Below are positions 16,259-20,073 of a stretch of DNA of 40,564 nt, one piece after another. The translations under genes and the position numbers were made by a program. The first letter of the stretch is position 1; each line of letters opens with the position of its first letter. The DNA is from a virus. The stretch is taken from the IMG/VR virus record IMGVR_UViG_3300033128_000024, positions 1 to 40,564 of that record; one strand, 5' to 3'. The notes beneath the pieces were generated by a model that was given only the letters and a program-made list of their open reading frames with translations, had not been told where the DNA came from and did not search any database.

Positions 16259-16710
16259 CTATGAATCAAATGAATTTAGATATCCCTCAAATTGACGAAG
16301 AAAAAACAAGATTCAAAATAGAAAAAATGATGGAAAAATATAAAATGCTTAGGTTGCAAACGCCAGAGGACTTTCTTCCAAAGATCACAACAACATACAC
16401 CATTACACCGCCGAGTTTTTCAAATCAGTTCCACTCAACCACAGAAGAAGCAGCGCTTAAAAAAATGGATTGGGAGATTGAGCGGGAAAAATACATGAAG
16501 CGAATCGAAAGGGGCATTAATCGTCTTACGCAAAAAGAGCGCCGCATCTTGGTAATGCTCTATATGCAGGATGAAGAAATGTTTGATTATGAAATCTATG
16601 CAGAAATGGGTCTAAGCCAGCGGAATTACTATCGTGTTAAAAACAAAGCATACTATCGACTGGCCTTTGCACTTAGAGAAGAAGTGTATAAGCAGGGGGA
16701 TAAATCATGA
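16255..16710 (+). CDS. ArpU-family-like phage transcriptional regulator
   Basis: RLTQKERRILVMLYMQD...GLSQRNYYRVKNKAYYRLAFAL. The size and position, upstream of the packaging genes, fit ArpU-type late activators. Confidence 0.55.
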   Translation: MTMNQMNLDIPQIDEEKTRFKIEKMMEKYKMLRLQTPEDFLPKITTTYTITPPSFSNQFHSTTEEAALKKMDWEIEREKYMKRIERGINRLTQKERRILVMLYMQDEEMFDYEIYAEMGLSQRNYYRVKNKAYYRLAFALREEVYKQGDKS

Positions 16711-17249
16711 ATTTTGTTCAGCCAATAAGGGACCTTGATCAGATCCATTATATAAAGAAATATCTTGGAGAGCGAAACAAAAGGAACTTGTTGCTTTTTG
16801 TGGCCGGAATCAATCTAGGTTTGCGTATATCCGATCTGCTAGAATTGAGAGTGAAGGATGTAAGGAAGCAATATGTATCTCTAAGAGAACAAAAAACAGG
16901 TAAAGAAAAAAGAATCAAAATAAACAAAACGCTTCGAAAAGCGATAGATCAATATATCAAGGACAAAGATGATCAAGAATACCTTTTTAAAAGCAGAGAA
17001 GGACTTAACAAATCAATCAGCCGCAGCAGTGCATACAATATATTGAGAGAGGCAGCGGAGTATGTTGGCCTCGATAGCATAGGGACACATACACTAAGGA
17101 AAACGTTTGGTTACTGGCATTATAAGAAATTCAAGGATGTGGCTTTGCTGCAAGAAATATTCAACCACTCAAGCCCAGATATTACATTGAGATATATTGG
17201 GATCACACAAGACACAATGGATAGAACAATGGACGACTTTGGCTTATAG
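16707..17249 (+). CDS. Tyrosine recombinase-like protein, catalytic domain only (180 aa)
   Basis: Box I is GLRISDLLELRVKDV. Then come KTGKEKRIKI and THTLRKTFGYWHY (HxxR). Box II is FNHSSPDITLRYIG (H...Y). The full R-K-HxxR-H-Y set is present. There is no N-terminal core-binding domain. Confidence 0.75.
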   Translation: MNFVQPIRDLDQIHYIKKYLGERNKRNLLLFVAGINLGLRISDLLELRVKDVRKQYVSLREQKTGKEKRIKINKTLRKAIDQYIKDKDDQEYLFKSREGLNKSISRSSAYNILREAAEYVGLDSIGTHTLRKTFGYWHYKKFKDVALLQEIFNHSSPDITLRYIGITQDTMDRTMDDFGL

Positions 17250-17284
17250 ACTCATCTGTTCAAATGGCAGGTGGGTCTTTTTTT
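17249..17284 (+). terminator. Intrinsic terminator after the recombinase-like gene
   Basis: The stem arms are gactcatctg and caggtgggtc, followed by T7. The hairpin contains AATGGCA (17263-17269). Confidence 0.7.
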
Positions 17285-17392
17285 GTGCTCTTTTTCACCA
17301 GCTAACCATAACGAGAAAATGTCCAACTCATTTTAGGGAAATGGCTGAAAAGCAAGAGGGACAAAGGATTCAGCGATTCCCTGAGTTAGACA

Positions 17393-17431
17393 CAATAATA
17401 GATATGGTGAATTGGTGGATTGTGTGGATAA
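17393..17431 (+). repeat. Upstream cassette repeat, copy 1 (contains the Trp-rich mini-ORF start MVNWWIVWI)
   Basis: 36/39 identity to 18441-18479; the core atatggtgaa[t/a]tggtggattgtgtggataa is 29/30. TTGAAA-17-TAAATT follows at 17435-17463. Confidence 0.8.
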
Positions 17432-17493
17432 TGGTTGAAATTAGAAAATTAATAATGTAAATTACATTCATAAAGTCAATTTAGGAGGATACA

Positions 17494-18306
17494 ATGACAA
17501 GTAGAGATTGGAAATGGACAGTAAGTGTCTTGATAGGTTTGATAGTCTTATTATTAACCTATAATTTATGGGGTAAACAAGACTCCATTATAGATGTTAT
17601 TTCTATAGGAAGCGGCATAACATCAATTGTATTAGCAATTCTAGCAATTATTATGTCTTTGTTCGAAGGCTTTAAAACTCACTTTAGAGAAGAGAAGTTA
17701 GATGCGAATATTAGTAAATTAGAAAAAAATCTTATAAGTATGGAAAATATCATAGTGGAAGGAAATAATTCTACACATAACAAAATAGAGGACATGGTTA
17801 AAATGTATAAGGATTTTGAGGGAAGTCCTGATTCGAAGGCAATTTACAATGAGCAATTAAAAGATGAAGAGAAACAAGATGTTAATAATAAGAGTGAAGA
17901 GGGGAAAGGAGGTACAACTTCAATCAAACAAGCAAAGAAGAAAGTTAGAAATAAAGTATTTGAGCCTGAAATTAGACAAGGAGGTATTTACCAAGTGGAC
18001 TCTAGAGTTAGTGACGATGGAAACTCGTACTATTTGGTAATTAGCAATGATACCTCAAATAAATATTCTCGTTCAGTAGGGGTAGTAAAGTTAACAAATC
18101 GAATTAAAGAGGGTTCATTGCCAACTCATGTTCTTATAGAAAAGTCGATATTAAAGACGGAAATGGACTATTTTGCTGCATGTGAAATTATTCGCACAAT
18201 CTCCAGAAGGAGGTTGGTAAATAAAGTTGCCGATTTAGACAAATTTAAAATGAAACAAATAATGATTGCTTTGAAAGTTTATTTAGGTTTTTTTAAAACT
18301 TCGTGA
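17494..18306 (+). CDS. Membrane-anchored MazF/PemK-like toxin-domain protein (2 TM, charged linker, C-terminal MazF-like domain)
   Basis: RBS TAGGAGGA precedes the start. The TM helices are VSVLIGLIVLLLTYNLW and IGSGITSIVLAILAIIMSLF. The C-terminus is GGIYQVD...YYLVISND...LPTHVLIE...CEIIRTISRRRLVNKVADLDKFKMKQIMIALKVYLGF, which parallels the MazF/EndoA motifs LPTHVEI and EQIRTIDKQRL. Confidence 0.7.
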   Translation: MTSRDWKWTVSVLIGLIVLLLTYNLWGKQDSIIDVISIGSGITSIVLAILAIIMSLFEGFKTHFREEKLDANISKLEKNLISMENIIVEGNNSTHNKIEDMVKMYKDFEGSPDSKAIYNEQLKDEEKQDVNNKSEEGKGGTTSIKQAKKKVRNKVFEPEIRQGGIYQVDSRVSDDGNSYYLVISNDTSNKYSRSVGVVKLTNRIKEGSLPTHVLIEKSILKTEMDYFAACEIIRTISRRRLVNKVADLDKFKMKQIMIALKVYLGFFKTS

Positions 18307-18314
18307 GTTATAAA

Positions 18315-18382
18315 AATGGCACATTTTTGGCACTATCTTGGCAAAGCATTTTGTCTCAGAGCGGTTATGATGGTATTAGGTG
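18315..18382 (+). repeat. Downstream cassette repeat, copy 1 (68 nt)
   Basis: 60/68 identity to 19244-19311. It starts with AATGGCA, 9 nt after the stop codon. Confidence 0.85.
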
Positions 18383-18394
18383 ATAAGTTGAAGA

Positions 18395-18479: not shown

Positions 18480-18514
18480 CTAAAAGTGTATAATAATAGT
18501 TAAGGAGGAATAAA

Positions 18515-19243
18515 ATGAGTGATCTTGTTGGAAATTTAAAAACAATATTAGAGAAATTAAAAAATCACAATAGGAGTTATTCACAATTAAAAAGCGATAT
18601 TTTTGATAATGACAATGTTCAATTAATAGTAGAGACTTCTGGAATTGCAAAGACTTTATATAAATCATATAAGTTTGGCAGCATGTTAAAATTTAGAGCA
18701 TTTTTAAATGGATTTAGCATGAACGAAGATCCTACACAAGCTCAACTAGAAAAATTAGAAAAATATATTTCTGTCGATGATGAGAAAGTCGAATTTATAA
18801 GTAATTTTTTTTCAAATATATTGTTATCTAATTCAAGTAAAGCATGTGTCATAATGGGGACCATTTTAAAAGATATTGTAGATAAGGAAAGTGTTGTTAA
18901 ACATGAAGATTTAATTGCGATCAATGCATTAAAAGAATTTTATGATGTGGATATTGTAAATTTTAATATTATAGAATCAGTATTTATTGACAAGTCAGAA
19001 GAGAAAATAGGTTTGACAGACATTCTTTTTAAGATAAAACATAATGACTTAGATGATTTAAGTGTTCTAATGACCTTAGATAAAGCTGCAGCAACTCAAT
19101 TATTATTTGTAACTACATCGGTTGACATGTCTACAGAGGTAAACAAATTTGAGAATAGAAGAAAAGAAGCAGATAATTTTTATGTAATGACGTCTGGAGG
19201 AAAGGTATTAACGAAGTACATTAACAGAATTTCAGAACTCTAG
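18515..19243 (+). CDS. Hypothetical cytoplasmic protein (242 aa), cassette 2 cargo
   Basis: RBS TAAGGAGGA precedes the start. The gene is AT-rich and no family was recognised. Confidence 0.6.
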   Translation: MSDLVGNLKTILEKLKNHNRSYSQLKSDIFDNDNVQLIVETSGIAKTLYKSYKFGSMLKFRAFLNGFSMNEDPTQAQLEKLEKYISVDDEKVEFISNFFSNILLSNSSKACVIMGTILKDIVDKESVVKHEDLIAINALKEFYDVDIVNFNIIESVFIDKSEEKIGLTDILFKIKHNDLDDLSVLMTLDKAAATQLLFVTTSVDMSTEVNKFENRRKEADNFYVMTSGGKVLTKYINRISEL

Positions 19244-19311
19244 AATGGCATAATTTTAGCACGATCTTGGCAAAACGTTTTGTCTGAGAGAGGTTATGAT
19301 GGTATTAGGTG
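19244..19311 (+). repeat. Downstream cassette repeat, copy 2 (68 nt)
   Basis: It starts with AATGGCA immediately after stop codon 19241-19243. Confidence 0.85.
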
Positions 19312-19327
19312 TAAATTAAGATTTAGA

Positions 19328-19361
19328 ACGTCGTCTCCTTTAAGTAAGGGGACGTTTTTTT
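19328..19361 (+). terminator. Intrinsic terminator of cassette 2
   Basis: acgtc..cc pairs with ggggacgt, followed by T7. The sequence is unrelated to the cassette 1 terminator. Confidence 0.7.
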
Positions 19362-19410
19362 ATTCGGATTTTCTAATTCCTGTCGATATAAAGACAGGAG
19401 GTTTTTAGAA

Positions 19411-20034
19411 ATGAAAAAGTCGAATATGTATTCAAATACTGTTTTCTTTATTATTATTATTTCTTTACTATTAGGTGACCTTATTATTTACACAGGATTA
19501 TTGAATTTGTTTTTTGAAGAGAAGGAAACAATGTGGGCTGGAATAATAGGTTTCACTGGTGCGGTTTTAGGTGGGGGAATAACTTATTATGGTATTAGAA
19601 TGCAATTAAAACATAGAGATAGGGAATTATTTTTGCAAACGGTACACATTAAAATGGAGACTTGTCAAGAATTTATAAGGAAATATTTTAATTATCAAAC
19701 CTTGGCATATGGCGGATTGGAGATTTCAAGAAATTTAGATAATGAAAAACGCGGAAAATTTTTAAGTAATCAATCTTATTTAATTCCAGAATTTACAGAG
19801 CTTATATTTCAAGATAGGGCCGCTTACATGAGTGTTCTCGATTATGAATCTGCTGAAAAGGCAAAAGAAATTCGTACCTCATTAAATAAAAAAGTGACAA
19901 CATTGGGTAAGGTAAAAAAACACATAGACTACGTTGAAGCTTTTGAGGAGATTGAGCAGTTTTGTCTTATATTTCATAAAACTTTTGAGCAACTTGAAAA
20001 CAAGTATATTGAACTTAAAAAATTCAATAAATAA
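19411..20034 (+). CDS. Hypothetical membrane protein (2 N-terminal TM helices plus a helical cytoplasmic domain)
   Basis: RBS GACAGGAGG precedes the start. The TM helices are VFFIIIISLLLGDLIIYTGLL and WAGIIGFTGAVLGGGITYYGI. Confidence 0.6.
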   Translation: MKKSNMYSNTVFFIIIISLLLGDLIIYTGLLNLFFEEKETMWAGIIGFTGAVLGGGITYYGIRMQLKHRDRELFLQTVHIKMETCQEFIRKYFNYQTLAYGGLEISRNLDNEKRGKFLSNQSYLIPEFTELIFQDRAAYMSVLDYESAEKAKEIRTSLNKKVTTLGKVKKHIDYVEAFEEIEQFCLIFHKTFEQLENKYIELKKFNK

Positions 20035-20052
20035 AAAGTTTGAATACTAATG

Positions 20053-20073
20053 GCATCCTTCGGGGTGCTTTTT
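20053..20073 (+). terminator. Intrinsic terminator closing the accessory island
   Basis: Stem-loop gcatcc-ttcg-gggtgc followed by T5. AATGGCA lies at 20049-20055. Confidence 0.7.

What the first reader, a model, noticed from the sequence alone, without database searches (positions are those of the whole stretch)
16707..20055. Catalytic-domain-only tyrosine recombinase followed by AATGGCA after four consecutive stop codons: integron-like cassette capture?
**The recombinase.** The 180-aa protein keeps the whole tyrosine-recombinase catalytic set: GLRISD (Arg), KTGKEKRI (Lys), HTLRKTF (HxxR), NHSS (His) and TLRY (Tyr). Only about 20 residues precede box I, so it has no core-binding domain. The phage already has a large serine integrase for integration, so this enzyme presumably does something else.

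**The motif.** Starting at this gene's stop codon, AATGGCA recurs just 3' of four successive genes:
- 17263, 14 nt after the stop;
- 18315, 9 nt after the stop;
- 19244, 0 nt after the stop;
- 20049, 15 nt after the stop.

Each occurrence lies at or before a hairpin.

**The hypothesis.** A recombinase followed by a same-strand array of ORF-plus-structured-site units resembles the logic of an integron (intI, attI, cassette-attC), but with unrelated sequences.

**Caveat.** AATGGCA also occurs at least four times inside coding regions elsewhere on this strand (about 5371, 5811, 8072 and 12931). The 7-mer alone is therefore weak evidence. The argument rests on position.
Basis: inference. Interest (0 to 1): 0.65.

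Follow-up and report, generated by a model that had tools for sequence, protein, structure and literature searches.

The report
Mini Xer-like recombinase with dif-like sites
The short phage recombinase is real and widespread, but its likely DNA target is a pair of chromosome-dimer-site-like ("dif-like") sequences right after the gene, not AATGGCA, which is mostly the edge of a repeated late-promoter-like element in a hypervariable cargo region.

Summary
The heptamer is not a recombination site.

- **The motif.** Copies 2 and 3 are the first 7 nt of a 68-nt repeat (D1). D1 has three TGGCA(C) boxes in 11-nt phase, a −10-like element and an intrinsic terminator. It is conserved in ArpU-carrying Bacillales phages and absent from most phages with this recombinase. 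Copies 1 and 4 sit in terminators and are not conserved in close relatives.
- **The recombinase's real partner.** Two 28-bp dif-like sites (11-bp arm, 6-bp centre, 11-bp arm) lie at 17301-17328 and 17385-17412. A site-first scan of viral contigs found the recombinase gene just upstream in 108 of 114 evaluable cases.
- **The region.** It is a hypervariable cargo hotspot. Phages with identical recombinases carry different cargo.
- **Against an integron.** Breakpoints fall 19 bp beyond site II. Genes A-B-C always travel together. Cargo-free relatives keep the recombinase.
- **For some site-specific insertion.** Two lineages show a half-site duplication flanking inserted DNA.

Verdict: integron-like capture is partly supported in spirit, wrong in site. 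The recombinase's function is still unknown.

The parts
15770..16258 (+). Xpf-like 'positive control sigma-like factor' gene. It is the first of three overlapping regulatory-operon genes.
   Evidence: NCBIfam NF005385 at 2.6e-44, above its cut-off. Pfam Sigma70_r4_2. PHROG 1190, sigma factor.
16255..16710 (+). ArpU-family late (packaging/lysis) transcriptional regulator gene. Its stop overlaps the recombinase start codon (ATGA).
   Evidence: NCBIfam TIGR01637 at 6.5e-42, 143 bits against a cut-off of 43. PHROG 248, transcriptional activator. The family's function is described in PMC3753634.
16707..17249 (+). 180-aa catalytic-domain-only tyrosine recombinase ('mini-Xer').
   Evidence: Pfam PF00589 over residues 23-164. 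Best sequence hits are XerA, XerD, XerC and XerH. AlphaFold pLDDT is 92.3, and the top folds are XerH-difH and XerA. The catalytic R, K, HxxR, H and Y are conserved in 30+ homologues.
17248..17285 (+). Intrinsic terminator of the regulatory operon. AATGGCA copy 1 (17263-17269) spans its loop and 3' stem.
   Evidence: Terminator scan. Fold energy -17.7 kcal/mol, z = -4.05. The loop sequence differs in L040, L045, phi105 and L007.
17301..17328 (+). Site I: GCTAACCATAA|CGAGAA|AATGTCCAACT. A 28-bp dif-like element (11-6-11) with a lineage-variable centre.
   Evidence: It is present 84-86 bp upstream of site II in every lineage. Its arms co-vary with those of site II.
17385..17412 (+). Site II: GTTAGACACAA|TAATAG|ATATGGTGAAT. 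A 28-bp dif-like element, proposed as the core site of the recombinase.
   Evidence: Family consensus is GTTACACACAA TATAAG ATATGGGTAAT. In a site-first scan of viral contigs, 108 of 114 evaluable hits have the recombinase gene upstream on the same strand, at a median of 109 nt. The SM1 version has a right arm matching the E. coli dif XerD arm at 10 of 11 positions.
17413..17431 (+). Conserved extension TGGTGGATTGTGTGGATAA. The left boundary of cargo slot 1 lies at 17431|17432.
   Evidence: Pairwise diversity among 12 relatives is 0.04-0.08 up to 17431 and 0.54 from 17432. The alignment is shown.
17494..18306 (+). Cargo gene A: an N-terminal membrane segment plus a PemK/MazF-like C-terminal domain.
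   Evidence: Pfam PemK_toxin at 1.4e-13 over residues 162-263. PHROG 1936, MazF-like. No PADLOC hit.
18315..18382 (+). D1 copy 1. It has TGGCAC boxes at 18317, 18328 and 18339 (11-nt phase) and −10-like hexamers at 18366-18371 and 18374-18379. AATGGCA copy 2 is its first 7 nt.
   Evidence: Direct repeat D1. The same architecture is found in 20+ Bacillales prophages on the + strand only.
18391..18428 (+). Intrinsic terminator directly after D1 copy 1.
   Evidence: Fold. An equivalent terminator follows D1 in relatives.
18433..18479 (+). Site II' plus extension: GAATGGAGCAT|TAATAT|ATATGGTGAAA followed by TGGTGGATTGTGTGGATAA. The left arm is new; the centre, right arm and extension are kept.
   Evidence: Direct repeat D3, 17393-17431 against 18441-18479, 92% identical. 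Homologous junction modules occur in L041 and L005.
18515..19243 (+). Cargo gene B (242 aa, no family match).
   Evidence: Searches found nothing. A 44%-identical homologue sits directly after site II in L030.
19244..19311 (+). D1 copy 2, with boxes TGGCAT, TAGCAC and TGGCAA. AATGGCA copy 3 is its first 7 nt.
   Evidence: 88% identical to copy 1.
19332..19361 (+). Intrinsic terminator after D1 copy 2.
19411..20034 (+). Cargo gene C (207 aa, hydrophobic N-terminus, no family match).
   Evidence: It is always found together with A and B.
20052..20075 (+). Terminator at the right boundary of the variable region. AATGGCA copy 4 (20049-20055) overlaps its 5' stem by chance.
   Evidence: The 3' half GGTGCTTTTTATTTTGGGGAGGGACACAAC is conserved, while the 5' flank differs in L041, L043 and L045.
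20094..20805 (+). Start of the conserved late operon: gene X (20094-20450) and the HNH endonuclease (20416-20805). terS follows at 21009 and terL at 21545.
   Evidence: Pfam HNH and Terminase_4. Synteny in relatives.

Best explanation
The window is a phi105-like Bacillus pumilus-group prophage. The region holds three separate things that the heptamer conflated.

**1. The recombinase and its sites.**
- The early/regulatory operon ends with three overlapping genes: xpf-like, arpU and a 180-aa Xer-like tyrosine recombinase that lacks the N-terminal core-binding domain.
- Just after this operon's terminator lie two 28-bp dif-like sites, 84 bp apart. Each has an 11-bp arm, a 6-bp centre and an 11-bp inverted arm.
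- Inferred: these four half-sites are what the mini-recombinase binds, and site II, with its near-invariant TATAAG-type centre, is its crossover site.
- Inferred: this makes a self-contained Xer/dif-like (Cre/lox-like) module. Its conserved job concerns the phage genome itself, such as interconverting monomers and multimers around the time of packaging. It is not cargo capture.

**2. The cargo hotspot.**
- Between site II and the packaging genes lies a hotspot for moron-type cargo: here A (MazF-like), B and C.
- Each gene has its own promoter-like −10 box and its own terminator.
- The cargo is exchanged between phages mainly as blocks whose ends abut the conserved flanking elements.

**3. D1.**
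- D1 has three phased TGGCA(C) boxes ending about 21 nt before a −10-like hexamer, followed by a terminator.
- Inferred: it is an activator-dependent late promoter with a leader terminator, served by the ArpU-type regulator.
- The window carries two copies.
- AATGGCA is D1's left edge in two cases and a coincidence inside terminators in the other two.
For: **Shown: the protein.**
- Domain content and conserved catalytic residues.
- Xer proteins are the best sequence and fold relatives, and the match covers the catalytic half only.

**Shown: the sites.**
- The gene is translationally coupled to ArpU, and that pairing is conserved across Bacillaceae.
- The wider synteny activator, recombinase, HNH/cos holds in phIS3501, SM1 and phi3626. 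In phiCD38-2 the activator-recombinase pair is present but the record ends before any packaging genes.
- Site II is conserved from Bacillus to Streptococcus and Clostridium, with an 11-6-11 geometry.
- The centre never ends in T, which argues against a plain sigma-A −10 box.
- In the site-first IMG/VR scan, 108 of 114 evaluable hits have the recombinase gene upstream on the same strand, at a median of 109 nt.
- Site I has the same geometry, its arms co-vary with those of site II, and it lies 84-86 bp away.

**Shown: D1.**
- D1's architecture is conserved across genera, on the + strand only, and is always followed by a terminator.
- GGCA-type D1 was found with an ArpU homologue in 30 of 31 cases. 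It is missing from 86 of 117 recombinase loci.
- The Clostridium relative L025 keeps site II next to the recombinase. It has a different 11-nt phased repeat next to its own sigma-like regulator, 1.5 kb away.
- ArpU, RinA and Ltr proteins are established activators of the promoter upstream of terS. TP901-1 Alt uses repeats from −76 to −32 (PMC3753634 and PMC3152322).

**Shown: the cargo.**
- Cargo differs among phages with identical recombinases, and the left breakpoint is sharp at 17431|17432.
Against: - Nothing here shows binding, cleavage or recombination.
- A recombinase without a core-binding domain may need a partner, or may have become a DNA-binding regulator.
- The strict conservation of the site II centre across genera is unusual for a pure crossover region.
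- The window's own site II has poorly symmetric arms (5 of 11) and only 12 of 28 identity to B. subtilis dif.
- The biological role, multimer handling, is a guess by analogy. cos phages package concatemers, so dimer resolution is not obviously useful to them.
- For D1, no transcription start is known. A terminator 20-60 nt after a promoter needs read-through that I cannot demonstrate.
- My strict repeat pattern missed D1 in many ArpU loci, so the ArpU-D1 link is statistical only.
- In Brevibacillus L018, D1 occurs with no ArpU gene in the 2.3 kb available upstream.
Confidence: 0.6

Rival explanations
1. Corrected version of the reader's idea. The mini-recombinase inserts and excises circular cargo cassettes at site II, not at AATGGCA. 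Site II would act like attI, and hybrid sites such as site II' (18433-18460) would mark the junctions between cassettes.
For: - In the window, a 1,048-bp unit (A plus D1 plus terminator) is bracketed by site II and by a copy that keeps the centre, right arm and extension but has a new left arm. Homology starts within 3 nt of the arm/centre boundary.
- The same terminator-to-hybrid-site junction module occurs between different genes in L041 and L005.
- Independently, in L022 a 161-aa ORF is flanked by a full site II and by a centre-plus-right-arm copy that abuts D1, as in cargo-free relatives.
- Cargo always begins a few bases beyond the site.
- The phIS3501 authors already speculated that this 'second integrase' takes part in acquiring host-useful functions (PMC3335513).
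Against: - In 12 close relatives the cargo breakpoint is 19 bp beyond the right arm, not in the centre.
- Most arrays have no second site. The half-site scan found few extra copies.
- A, B and C never occur separately in about 10 independent contigs.
- The window, L041 and L005 junctions share ancestry, so there are only two independent cases in all.
- Cargo-free phages keep the gene and both sites.
- Cargo also sits upstream of site I ('slot 0') and downstream of D1 ('slot 2').
Confidence: 0.2
2. Sites I and II are operators rather than recombination sites. The recombinase-derived protein, or ArpU, binds them to control transcription from or through this intergenic region, for example by looping the two sites that lie 84 bp apart.
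For: - There are four co-varying half-sites at a spacing of eight helical turns.
- The gene is coupled to, and conserved with, the late regulator.
- The protein lacks the core-binding domain.
- The site II centre is conserved in sequence far beyond what strand exchange needs.
Against: - The full catalytic set (R, K, HxxR, H, Y) is invariant across about 40 aligned members and down to 30% identity. This is hard to explain for a pure DNA binder.
- The site stays next to the recombinase gene where the regulator is elsewhere or of another family, as in L025 and in 26 loci with no detected Ltr.
- In cargo-bearing phages the sites are 0.6-2 kb from D1.
Confidence: 0.15
3. One reading: AATGGCA plus its hairpin is an attC-like recombination site recognised by the 180-aa recombinase.
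For: - Four copies lie just after four consecutive stop codons. No other 7-mer does this.
- Homology among relatives does break 1-5 nt upstream of the first TGGCAC box.
Against: - Two copies are one duplicated 68-nt element. The other two are not conserved in near-identical relatives.
- The hairpins are ordinary intrinsic terminators.
- The TGGCA array is absent from most phages that have the recombinase, including Streptococcus SM1.
- Three direct repeats in 11-bp phase are activator-type sites, not a tyrosine-recombinase core.
Confidence: 0.03
4. D1 is something other than an ArpU-type late promoter. It could be a sigma-54 (SigL) promoter, since each adjacent pair of boxes reads TGGCAC-N5-TGGCA. 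Or it could be a structured RNA or 3'-UTR element.
For: - The GG-N10-GC spacing of neighbouring boxes fits the −24/−12 geometry, and TGGCACGATCTTGGCA differs from a TGGCAC-N5-TTGCA consensus at one −12 position (sequence; consensus from my own knowledge).
- D1 always directly follows a stop codon and precedes a terminator.
Against: - Other genera have TGGCAG boxes and three or four copies, which is not promoter-like for sigma-54.
- No enhancer-binding protein is encoded nearby.
- The 5' part of D1 shows no unusual folding: z = -0.77 and -2.16.
- There is no Rfam hit, even at E <= 1.
- An exact 11-nt phase points to one face of duplex DNA.
Confidence: 0.05

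Closest known systems
Single-recombinase Xer/dif systems (XerS/difSL of streptococci, XerH/difH, archaeal XerA/dif)
   Same: - Xer proteins are the best sequence and fold relatives of the protein.
- The target has the dif geometry of an 11-bp arm, a 6-bp centre and an 11-bp inverted arm, with inner-arm similarity to dif. The SM1 right arm matches the E. coli XerD arm at 10 of 11 positions.
- The recombinase gene and its site are adjacent. From my own knowledge this is also true of xerS/difSL.
   Different: - The protein is only 180 aa and has no N-terminal core-binding domain.
- There are two tandem sites, 84 bp apart.
- The module is phage-borne and coupled to a late-gene regulator.
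- Activity and purpose are untested.
Integron (IntI, attI, attC cassettes)
   Same: - A tyrosine recombinase gene sits next to a primary site, followed by a same-strand, highly variable gene array.
- Occasional hybrid-looking sites lie between units.
   Different: - The IntI-specific model is not matched: 32.7 bits against a cut-off of 265.
- There are no attC-like folded sites.
- Units carry their own promoters and terminators.
- Breakpoints are not at the site centre.
- A, B and C move as one block.
- The family persists without any cassettes.
ArpU/RinA/Ltr late activators and the TP901-1 Alt late promoter
   Same: - An ArpU-family gene lies just upstream of the packaging genes.
- D1 has a series of direct repeats upstream of a −10 box, like the Alt repeats at −76 to −32 described in PMC3152322.
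   Different: - No binding site is known for ArpU.
- D1 is followed at once by a terminator.
- D1 is duplicated inside the cargo in this window.
FimB/FimE-type minimal tyrosine DNA invertases
   Same: The size is similar (about 180-200 aa), with almost nothing before the catalytic domain. NCBIfam NF007371 aligns query residues 21-164 to profile positions 22-172 of 198.
   Different: - The score is far below the cut-off: 39 bits against 222.
- No invertible segment is present. All of about 170 loci show the same orientation of sites I and II and of D1.
Cre/loxP of phage P1, and accessory-site resolution systems such as Tn4430 TnpI/IRS (from my own knowledge)
   Same: - A phage- or transposon-encoded tyrosine recombinase has its own nearby site.
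- Several recombinase-binding motifs are grouped in about 110 bp.
   Different: - Cre and TnpI are full-length two-domain enzymes.
- No function is shown here.

Membership tests
Tyrosine recombinase superfamily | Catalytic R, K, HxxR, H/W and nucleophilic Y in a Phage_integrase fold. | tested here: met
   Pfam PF00589 at 2e-23. R40, K63/K66, H128-R131, H154 and Y163 are invariant in 39 aligned homologues and in loci down to 30% identity. The AlphaFold model has pLDDT 92, and 75 PDB recombinase chains match at E <= 0.001.
Tyrosine recombinase superfamily | N-terminal core-binding (SAM-like) domain. | tested here: not met
   The Pfam domain starts at residue 23 of 180. The XerA alignment starts at its residue 122. 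Foldseek TM-score normalised to the target is 0.4-0.5 for full-length enzymes and 0.67-0.71 for isolated catalytic domains.
Xer/dif-type system | A 28-bp target made of two 11-bp inverted arms around a 6-bp centre. | tested here: met
   19 lineage variants parse this way. Arms are 4-9 of 11 inverted-identical (most 5-9), and inner-arm positions are highly conserved. A second site of the same geometry lies 84-86 bp upstream.
Xer/dif-type system | The recombinase is an orthologue of XerC, XerD, XerS, XerH or XerA. | tested here: not met
   These are the best hits, but all are far below the curated cut-offs: XerA 75 bits against 220, and XerD 57.5 against 330.
Xer/dif-type system | Strand exchange at the borders of the centre; resolution of dimers. 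| not testable with these tools
   There is only indirect evidence. Two lineages have duplications that begin at the left-arm/centre boundary.
Integron | An IntI-type integrase, with the extra IntI-specific segment. | tested here: not met
   TIGR02249 scores 32.7 bits against a cut-off of 265, and only residues 37-88 match. VchIntIA is merely rank 13 among the fold hits.
Integron | Promoterless cassettes, each ending in a folded attC site. | tested here: not met
   Each unit starts with its own −10-like box and ends in an intrinsic terminator. The 5' part of D1 is not unusually structured.
Integron | Cassettes are individually mobile, with boundaries at the recombination site. | tested here: not met
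   A, B and C always occur together. The breakpoint is at 17431|17432, 19 bp beyond site II. Two half-site duplications are the only positive hints.
ArpU-family late regulator (gene 16255-16710) | Match to TIGR01637 above the cut-off, and a position upstream of the packaging genes. | tested here: met
   143 bits against a cut-off of 43. Synteny is shown.
Activator-dependent late promoter (D1) | Transcription start downstream of the −10 box, dependent on the phage regulator. | not testable with these tools
   Only the architecture and its co-occurrence with ArpU are shown.

The most novel reading that the evidence does not exclude
The 180-aa mini-Xer and its adjacent dif-like site form a phage-borne insertion platform. 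Small circular DNA carrying a compatible half-site is recombined in next to the late operon. This would make an integron-like cargo acquisition system, with unrelated parts, in thousands of Firmicutes temperate phages.
Probability: 0.15. Interest if true: 0.85.

Novelty: new variant of a known kind. Interest (0 to 1): 0.58.

Why it matters
**The open question.** This 'second integrase' is in phi105, SM1, phi3626, phIS3501, pneumococcal and pyogenic streptococcal prophages, and C. difficile phages.
- 208 phage records carry it.
- At least 7,953 protein clusters belong to the family, almost all exactly 180 aa.
- Databases name it only 'site-specific integrase'.
- The one paper I found that discusses it says its role is unclear (PMC3335513).

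**What this adds.** Pinning a conserved 28-bp dif-like site, plus a second copy 84 bp away, to the gene gives a concrete substrate for biochemistry and genetics.

**Possible outcomes.**
- If the enzyme acts on the phage genome at packaging time, it is a missing step in the biology of cos/HNH siphophages.
- If it inserts cargo, it explains a major hotspot for morons and possible defence genes.

**Practical points.** The TGGCA-box element is a candidate ArpU operator and late promoter that could be tested directly. The fixed boundaries of the cargo slot are useful for mining accessory genes.

Tried and rejected
- **Known RNA families.** Rfam at gathering threshold on the whole window, and at E <= 1 on 17200-20150, gave nothing. 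Folding the 5' parts of D1 showed no unusual stability.
- **Near-identical phage DNA.** BLAST of the intergenic repeat against phage genomes found no match. Only phi105 aligns at the DNA level, and only over arpU, the recombinase and the first intergenic region.
- **Defence annotation.** PADLOC gave no hit for A, B, C or X. Pfam, PHROGs and NCBIfam gave nothing for B, C or X.
- **Invertible switch, by analogy with FimB/FimE.** Rejected, because no locus shows the region between the inverted arms, or D1, in the opposite orientation.
- **D1 as small-terminase binding sites.** Rejected, because the TGGCA boxes are conserved across phages with unrelated terS genes, for example L018.
- **Site II as a plain −10 promoter box.** Rejected, because the sixth centre base is never T in 19 lineages.
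- **Crossover at the site II centre as the source of cargo swaps.** Tested by a diversity profile and not supported. The jump in diversity comes 19 bp further right.
- **Profiling ArpU against D1.** Only partly informative, because my strict repeat pattern misses degenerate arrays such as those of the B. cereus group.
- **Literature.** Searches for a described function of the small integrase, for a dif-like site in these phages, or for the motif strings themselves found nothing relevant.
- **Inverted repeats around 'slot 0' cargo.** I saw these by eye. One repeat finder did not confirm them, and I had given it the locus in the other orientation.

Full report
**1. What is in the window**

The ORF layout and family scans show a temperate siphophage.
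- A large serine integrase lies at 3462-4994 and an arbitrium AimR at 5245-6348.
- Then comes a run of + strand genes ending in three overlapping genes: an Xpf-like sigma-like factor (15770-16258), an ArpU-family late regulator (16255-16710, TIGR01637 at 6.5e-42) and the 180-aa Phage_integrase-only protein (16707-17249).
- Three cargo genes follow: A (17494-18306, membrane segment plus PemK/MazF-like domain), B (18515-19243) and C (19411-20034).
- The conserved late operon comes next: X, HNH, terS and terL from 20094.
- The closest named phage is phi105. Near-identical prophages are in the Bacillus pumilus group: B. altitudinis, B. safensis and B. pumilus.

**2. Checking the observation**

The four AATGGCA positions, their distances from the stops, the recombinase motifs and the hairpins are all as stated.

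The heptamer is not enriched in the window as a whole: 12 copies against 9.3 expected. It is, however, the only 7-mer with four starts within 0-15 nt after stops of ORFs of at least 100 aa.

The pattern dissolves on inspection.
- Copies 2 and 3 are the first seven bases of a 68-nt direct repeat, D1 (18315-18382 and 19244-19311, 88% identical). Counted once, AATGGCA has three zone hits, like five other 7-mers.
- Copy 1 lies in the loop and 3' stem of the recombinase operon's terminator. It reads AATTGGCA in L040 and L045 and is absent in phi105, L007 and L008.
- Copy 4 shares only GCA with a conserved terminator stem. In L041 and L045 the preceding bases differ, and in L043 a called gene runs right up to the stem.

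**3. What D1 is**

I aligned D1 from the window and from prophages of Bacillus, Lederbergia, Sporosarcina, Oceanobacillus, Metabacillus, Neobacillus and Brevibacillus. They share one architecture.
- Usually three or four direct TGGCA(C/G) boxes at exactly 11-nt spacing (only two are detectable in Oceanobacillus L014).
- The last box ends about 21 nt before a TG-N-TANNNT-type hexamer.
- A second −10-like hexamer lies 2 nt further on.
- An intrinsic terminator follows within about 20-130 nt.

D1 occurs only on the + strand, between the recombinase gene and the packaging genes. The one exception is L018, where it precedes the recombinase gene. It occurs once in every B. pumilus-group relative examined and twice in this window.

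The design matches what is described for activator-dependent late promoters of Gram-positive phages. Ltr proteins (RinA, ArpU, LtrA-C) activate the promoter upstream of terS, and TP901-1 Alt uses repeats from −76 to −32 (PMC3753634 and PMC3152322).

Among 117 recombinase-bearing loci with room to judge, GGCA-type D1 was found in 31. Thirty of those have an ArpU homologue, and 86 loci have no such array.

In the Clostridium relative L025 the recombinase gene is followed by its own site. A different 11-nt phased repeat (AAAATGTCGTA, three copies) sits 1.5 kb away, right after a sigma-like regulator and before HNH.

D1 therefore goes with the regulator and the late operon, not with the recombinase. 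No transcription start is known, so 'late promoter with a leader terminator' is an inference.

**4. What the recombinase is**

- All catalytic residues are invariant in 39 aligned family members and in genome-derived homologues down to 30% identity.
- The best sequence relatives are Xer proteins (XerA 4a8e at 1.4e-12; NCBIfam XerA, XerD and XerC). All are far below family cut-offs.
- A confident AlphaFold model (pLDDT 92.3) matches XerH-difH and XerA best.
- It covers only the catalytic half of full-length enzymes (TM-score normalised to the target 0.4-0.5). It matches isolated catalytic domains of HP1 and P2 integrases fully (0.67-0.71).
- The integron-integrase model is not matched: 32.7 bits against a cut-off of 265.
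- The family is very large and uniform. At least 7,953 clusters match at E <= 1e-10, nearly all 180 aa and all named only 'site-specific integrase'.
- 208 phage records carry a homologue: Streptococcus 128, Bacillus 28, Clostridium 26, C. difficile, Listeria and Staphylococcus.
- The order activator, recombinase, HNH/cos holds in phIS3501, SM1 and phi3626; in phiCD38-2 the activator-recombinase pair lies at the end of the record, with no packaging genes in view.
- The only discussion of its role that I found calls it a 'second integrase' of unclear function, possibly involved in acquiring host-useful genes (PMC3335513).

**5. The element that does go with the recombinase**

The first intergenic region is conserved in every relative, including Brevibacillus, Clostridium and Streptococcus. 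Its most conserved part parses as an 11-bp arm, a 6-bp centre and an 11-bp inverted arm.
- The family consensus is GTTACACACAA|TATAAG|ATATGGGTAAT.
- The window has GTTAGACACAA|TAATAG|ATATGGTGAAT at 17385-17412.
- In phage SM1 the site is ATTTAACAGAA|TATAAG|ATATGTTAAAT.
  - Its arms are 9 of 11 inverted-identical.
  - Its right arm matches the E. coli dif XerD arm at 10 of 11 positions.
  - Overall it is 18 of 28 identical to E. coli dif and 19 of 28 to B. subtilis dif. The dif sequences were verified in PMC3025954.
- The sixth centre base is never T in 19 lineages, so this is not simply a −10 box.

A second site of the same geometry lies 84-86 bp upstream. In the window it is 17301-17328, GCTAACCATAA|CGAGAA|AATGTCCAACT. 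Its arms change in step with those of site II from lineage to lineage.

The key test used no protein information. I scanned IMG/VR with TTNNNCANAATATAAGATATGNNNAA.
- The scan returned at least 120 contigs.
- In 108 of the 114 with enough upstream sequence, a homologue of the recombinase lies upstream on the same strand, at a median of 109 nt.

I infer that sites I and II are the protein's binding sites and that site II is its crossover site. This rests on linkage, geometry and co-variation, not on any activity.

**6. Is it an integron-like capture system?**

Evidence for:
- The region is truly hypervariable. Ten contexts encoding the identical 180-aa protein carry ten different gene sets between site II and gene X.
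- The left breakpoint is razor sharp. Pairwise diversity is 0.04-0.08 through the recombinase gene, both sites and the 19-bp extension, then 0.54 from 17432.
- The right edge of slot 1 is 1-5 nt before the first TGGCAC box.
- The window has a second copy of site II's centre, right arm and extension (18433-18479), with an unrelated left arm. It sits just after the terminator of unit A.
- Homologous junction modules occur in L041 and L005.
- In L022, a different genus-level lineage, a 161-aa ORF is flanked by a full site II and by a centre-plus-right-arm copy that abuts D1, as in cargo-free phages.
- These two independent cases look like products of insertion at the left-arm/centre boundary.

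Evidence against:
- The common breakpoint is 19 bp to the right of site II, not in its centre.
- Most arrays have no second site.
- A, B and C are always together in about 10 contigs that carry identical A or B. One of these is a remnant without the recombinase.
- The units have their own −10-like boxes and terminators.
- Cargo also occurs between the gene and site I, in about 25 of 108 contigs, and downstream of D1.
- Lederbergia prophages have no cargo at all, and phi105 has only a 64-aa ORF, yet all keep the gene and both sites.

The conserved function is therefore not cassette capture. Occasional site-specific insertion remains possible; I put it at about 0.2.

**7. Most likely mechanism, and how sure**

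Shown:
- The gene, its fold and its conserved catalytic set.
- Its coupling to ArpU.
- Two co-varying dif-like sites tied to it.
- A cargo hotspot with fixed boundaries.
- D1's conserved architecture and its association with ArpU-type phages.

Inferred:
- Four protomers bind sites I and II.
- Strand exchange occurs at the borders of the site II centre.
- The module acts on the phage genome itself (monomer/multimer interconversion or a related step) around the onset of late expression.
- D1 is the ArpU-dependent late promoter, whose transcripts must read through the leader terminator and the cargo terminators.

My confidence is about 0.6 for the overall picture. It is above 0.9 that AATGGCA is not the recombination site.

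**8. Novelty and score**

It nonetheless led to a conserved, apparently undescribed pairing of a truncated Xer-like recombinase with its own tandem dif-like sites in a very large phage family. Searches for the motif strings and for any functional description found nothing.

This is a new variant of a known kind (Xer/dif, Cre/lox). It makes an old annotation puzzle directly testable. Interest: 0.58.

Noticed in passing
window 5245-6348 (and 3462-4994): The phage encodes an AimR-like arbitrium receptor (Pfam AimR at 1.8e-32) next to its large serine integrase. Its lysis-lysogeny decision is therefore probably peptide-signalled.
   Followed up: no
L056, L062, L078, L083, L104, L139, L145, L163, L164 (B. 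cereus-group viral contigs), between the recombinase gene and site I: About 25 of 108 contigs carry 0.6-2.6 kb of extra DNA between the recombinase terminator and site I ('slot 0'). In the B. cereus-type ones the insert looked, by eye, to be flanked by inverted repeats of about 45 bp (CTAGGGGTATCG..GCATTTTGGAAAAA..CGCTAAG and its complement). One repeat finder did not confirm this, but I gave it the locus in the opposite orientation.
   Followed up: partly
L048 (Streptococcus phage SM1) 4676-4703; annotated cos at 4759-4771: A weak second copy of the site II centre plus right-arm start (AAAAAATAATAGATATGTGTGAA) lies about 80 nt upstream of the annotated cos site. It could be chance, or a link between the recombinase site and packaging.
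   Followed up: no
L025 3396-3430 (uncultured Clostridium): In place of TGGCA boxes this relative has AAAATGTCGTA three times at 11-nt phase, before TTGTAC-17-TATACT and the HNH/terminase genes. TGTCGTA resembles the Spo0A box TGTCGAA (from memory), which hints at host-regulator input.
   Followed up: no
window 18317-18344 and 19246-19273: Each adjacent pair of D1 boxes (TGGCAC-N5-TGGCA) has the GG-N10-GC spacing of sigma-54 −24/−12 promoters. The match is one base off the TTGCA consensus (sequence).
   Followed up: partly
L180 3001-5957: The A-B-C-X block occurs in one genome without the arpU and recombinase genes upstream. A PIN-domain gene and a dehydrogenase gene are there instead, so this is probably a decayed prophage.
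   Followed up: no
L172, L175, L176 (relatives of window 20416-20805): In otherwise near-identical phages the HNH endonuclease gene is replaced by a 54-aa ORF or by a 182-aa gene on the opposite strand. The HNH position is thus a further variable spot.
   Followed up: no
window 20052-20093 and relatives: The right boundary of the variable region lies inside a terminator. The 3' half GGTGCTTTTTATTTTGGGGAGGGACACAAC is conserved, while the 5' stem and loop differ with compensating changes between cargo types.
   Followed up: no
L005 7001-7543, L030 7001-7407, L033 7001-7505: The recombinase gene is truncated or frameshifted in three genomes, although sites and cargo remain. This fits prophage decay, or dispensability in the lysogen.
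   Followed up: no
L018 2092-2901 (Brevibacillus): Here the TGGCAG-box element and its terminator lie upstream of a 56-aa zinc-ribbon-like ORF and the recombinase gene. Two opposite-strand genes precede them, and there is no ArpU gene in the 2.3 kb available.
   Followed up: partly
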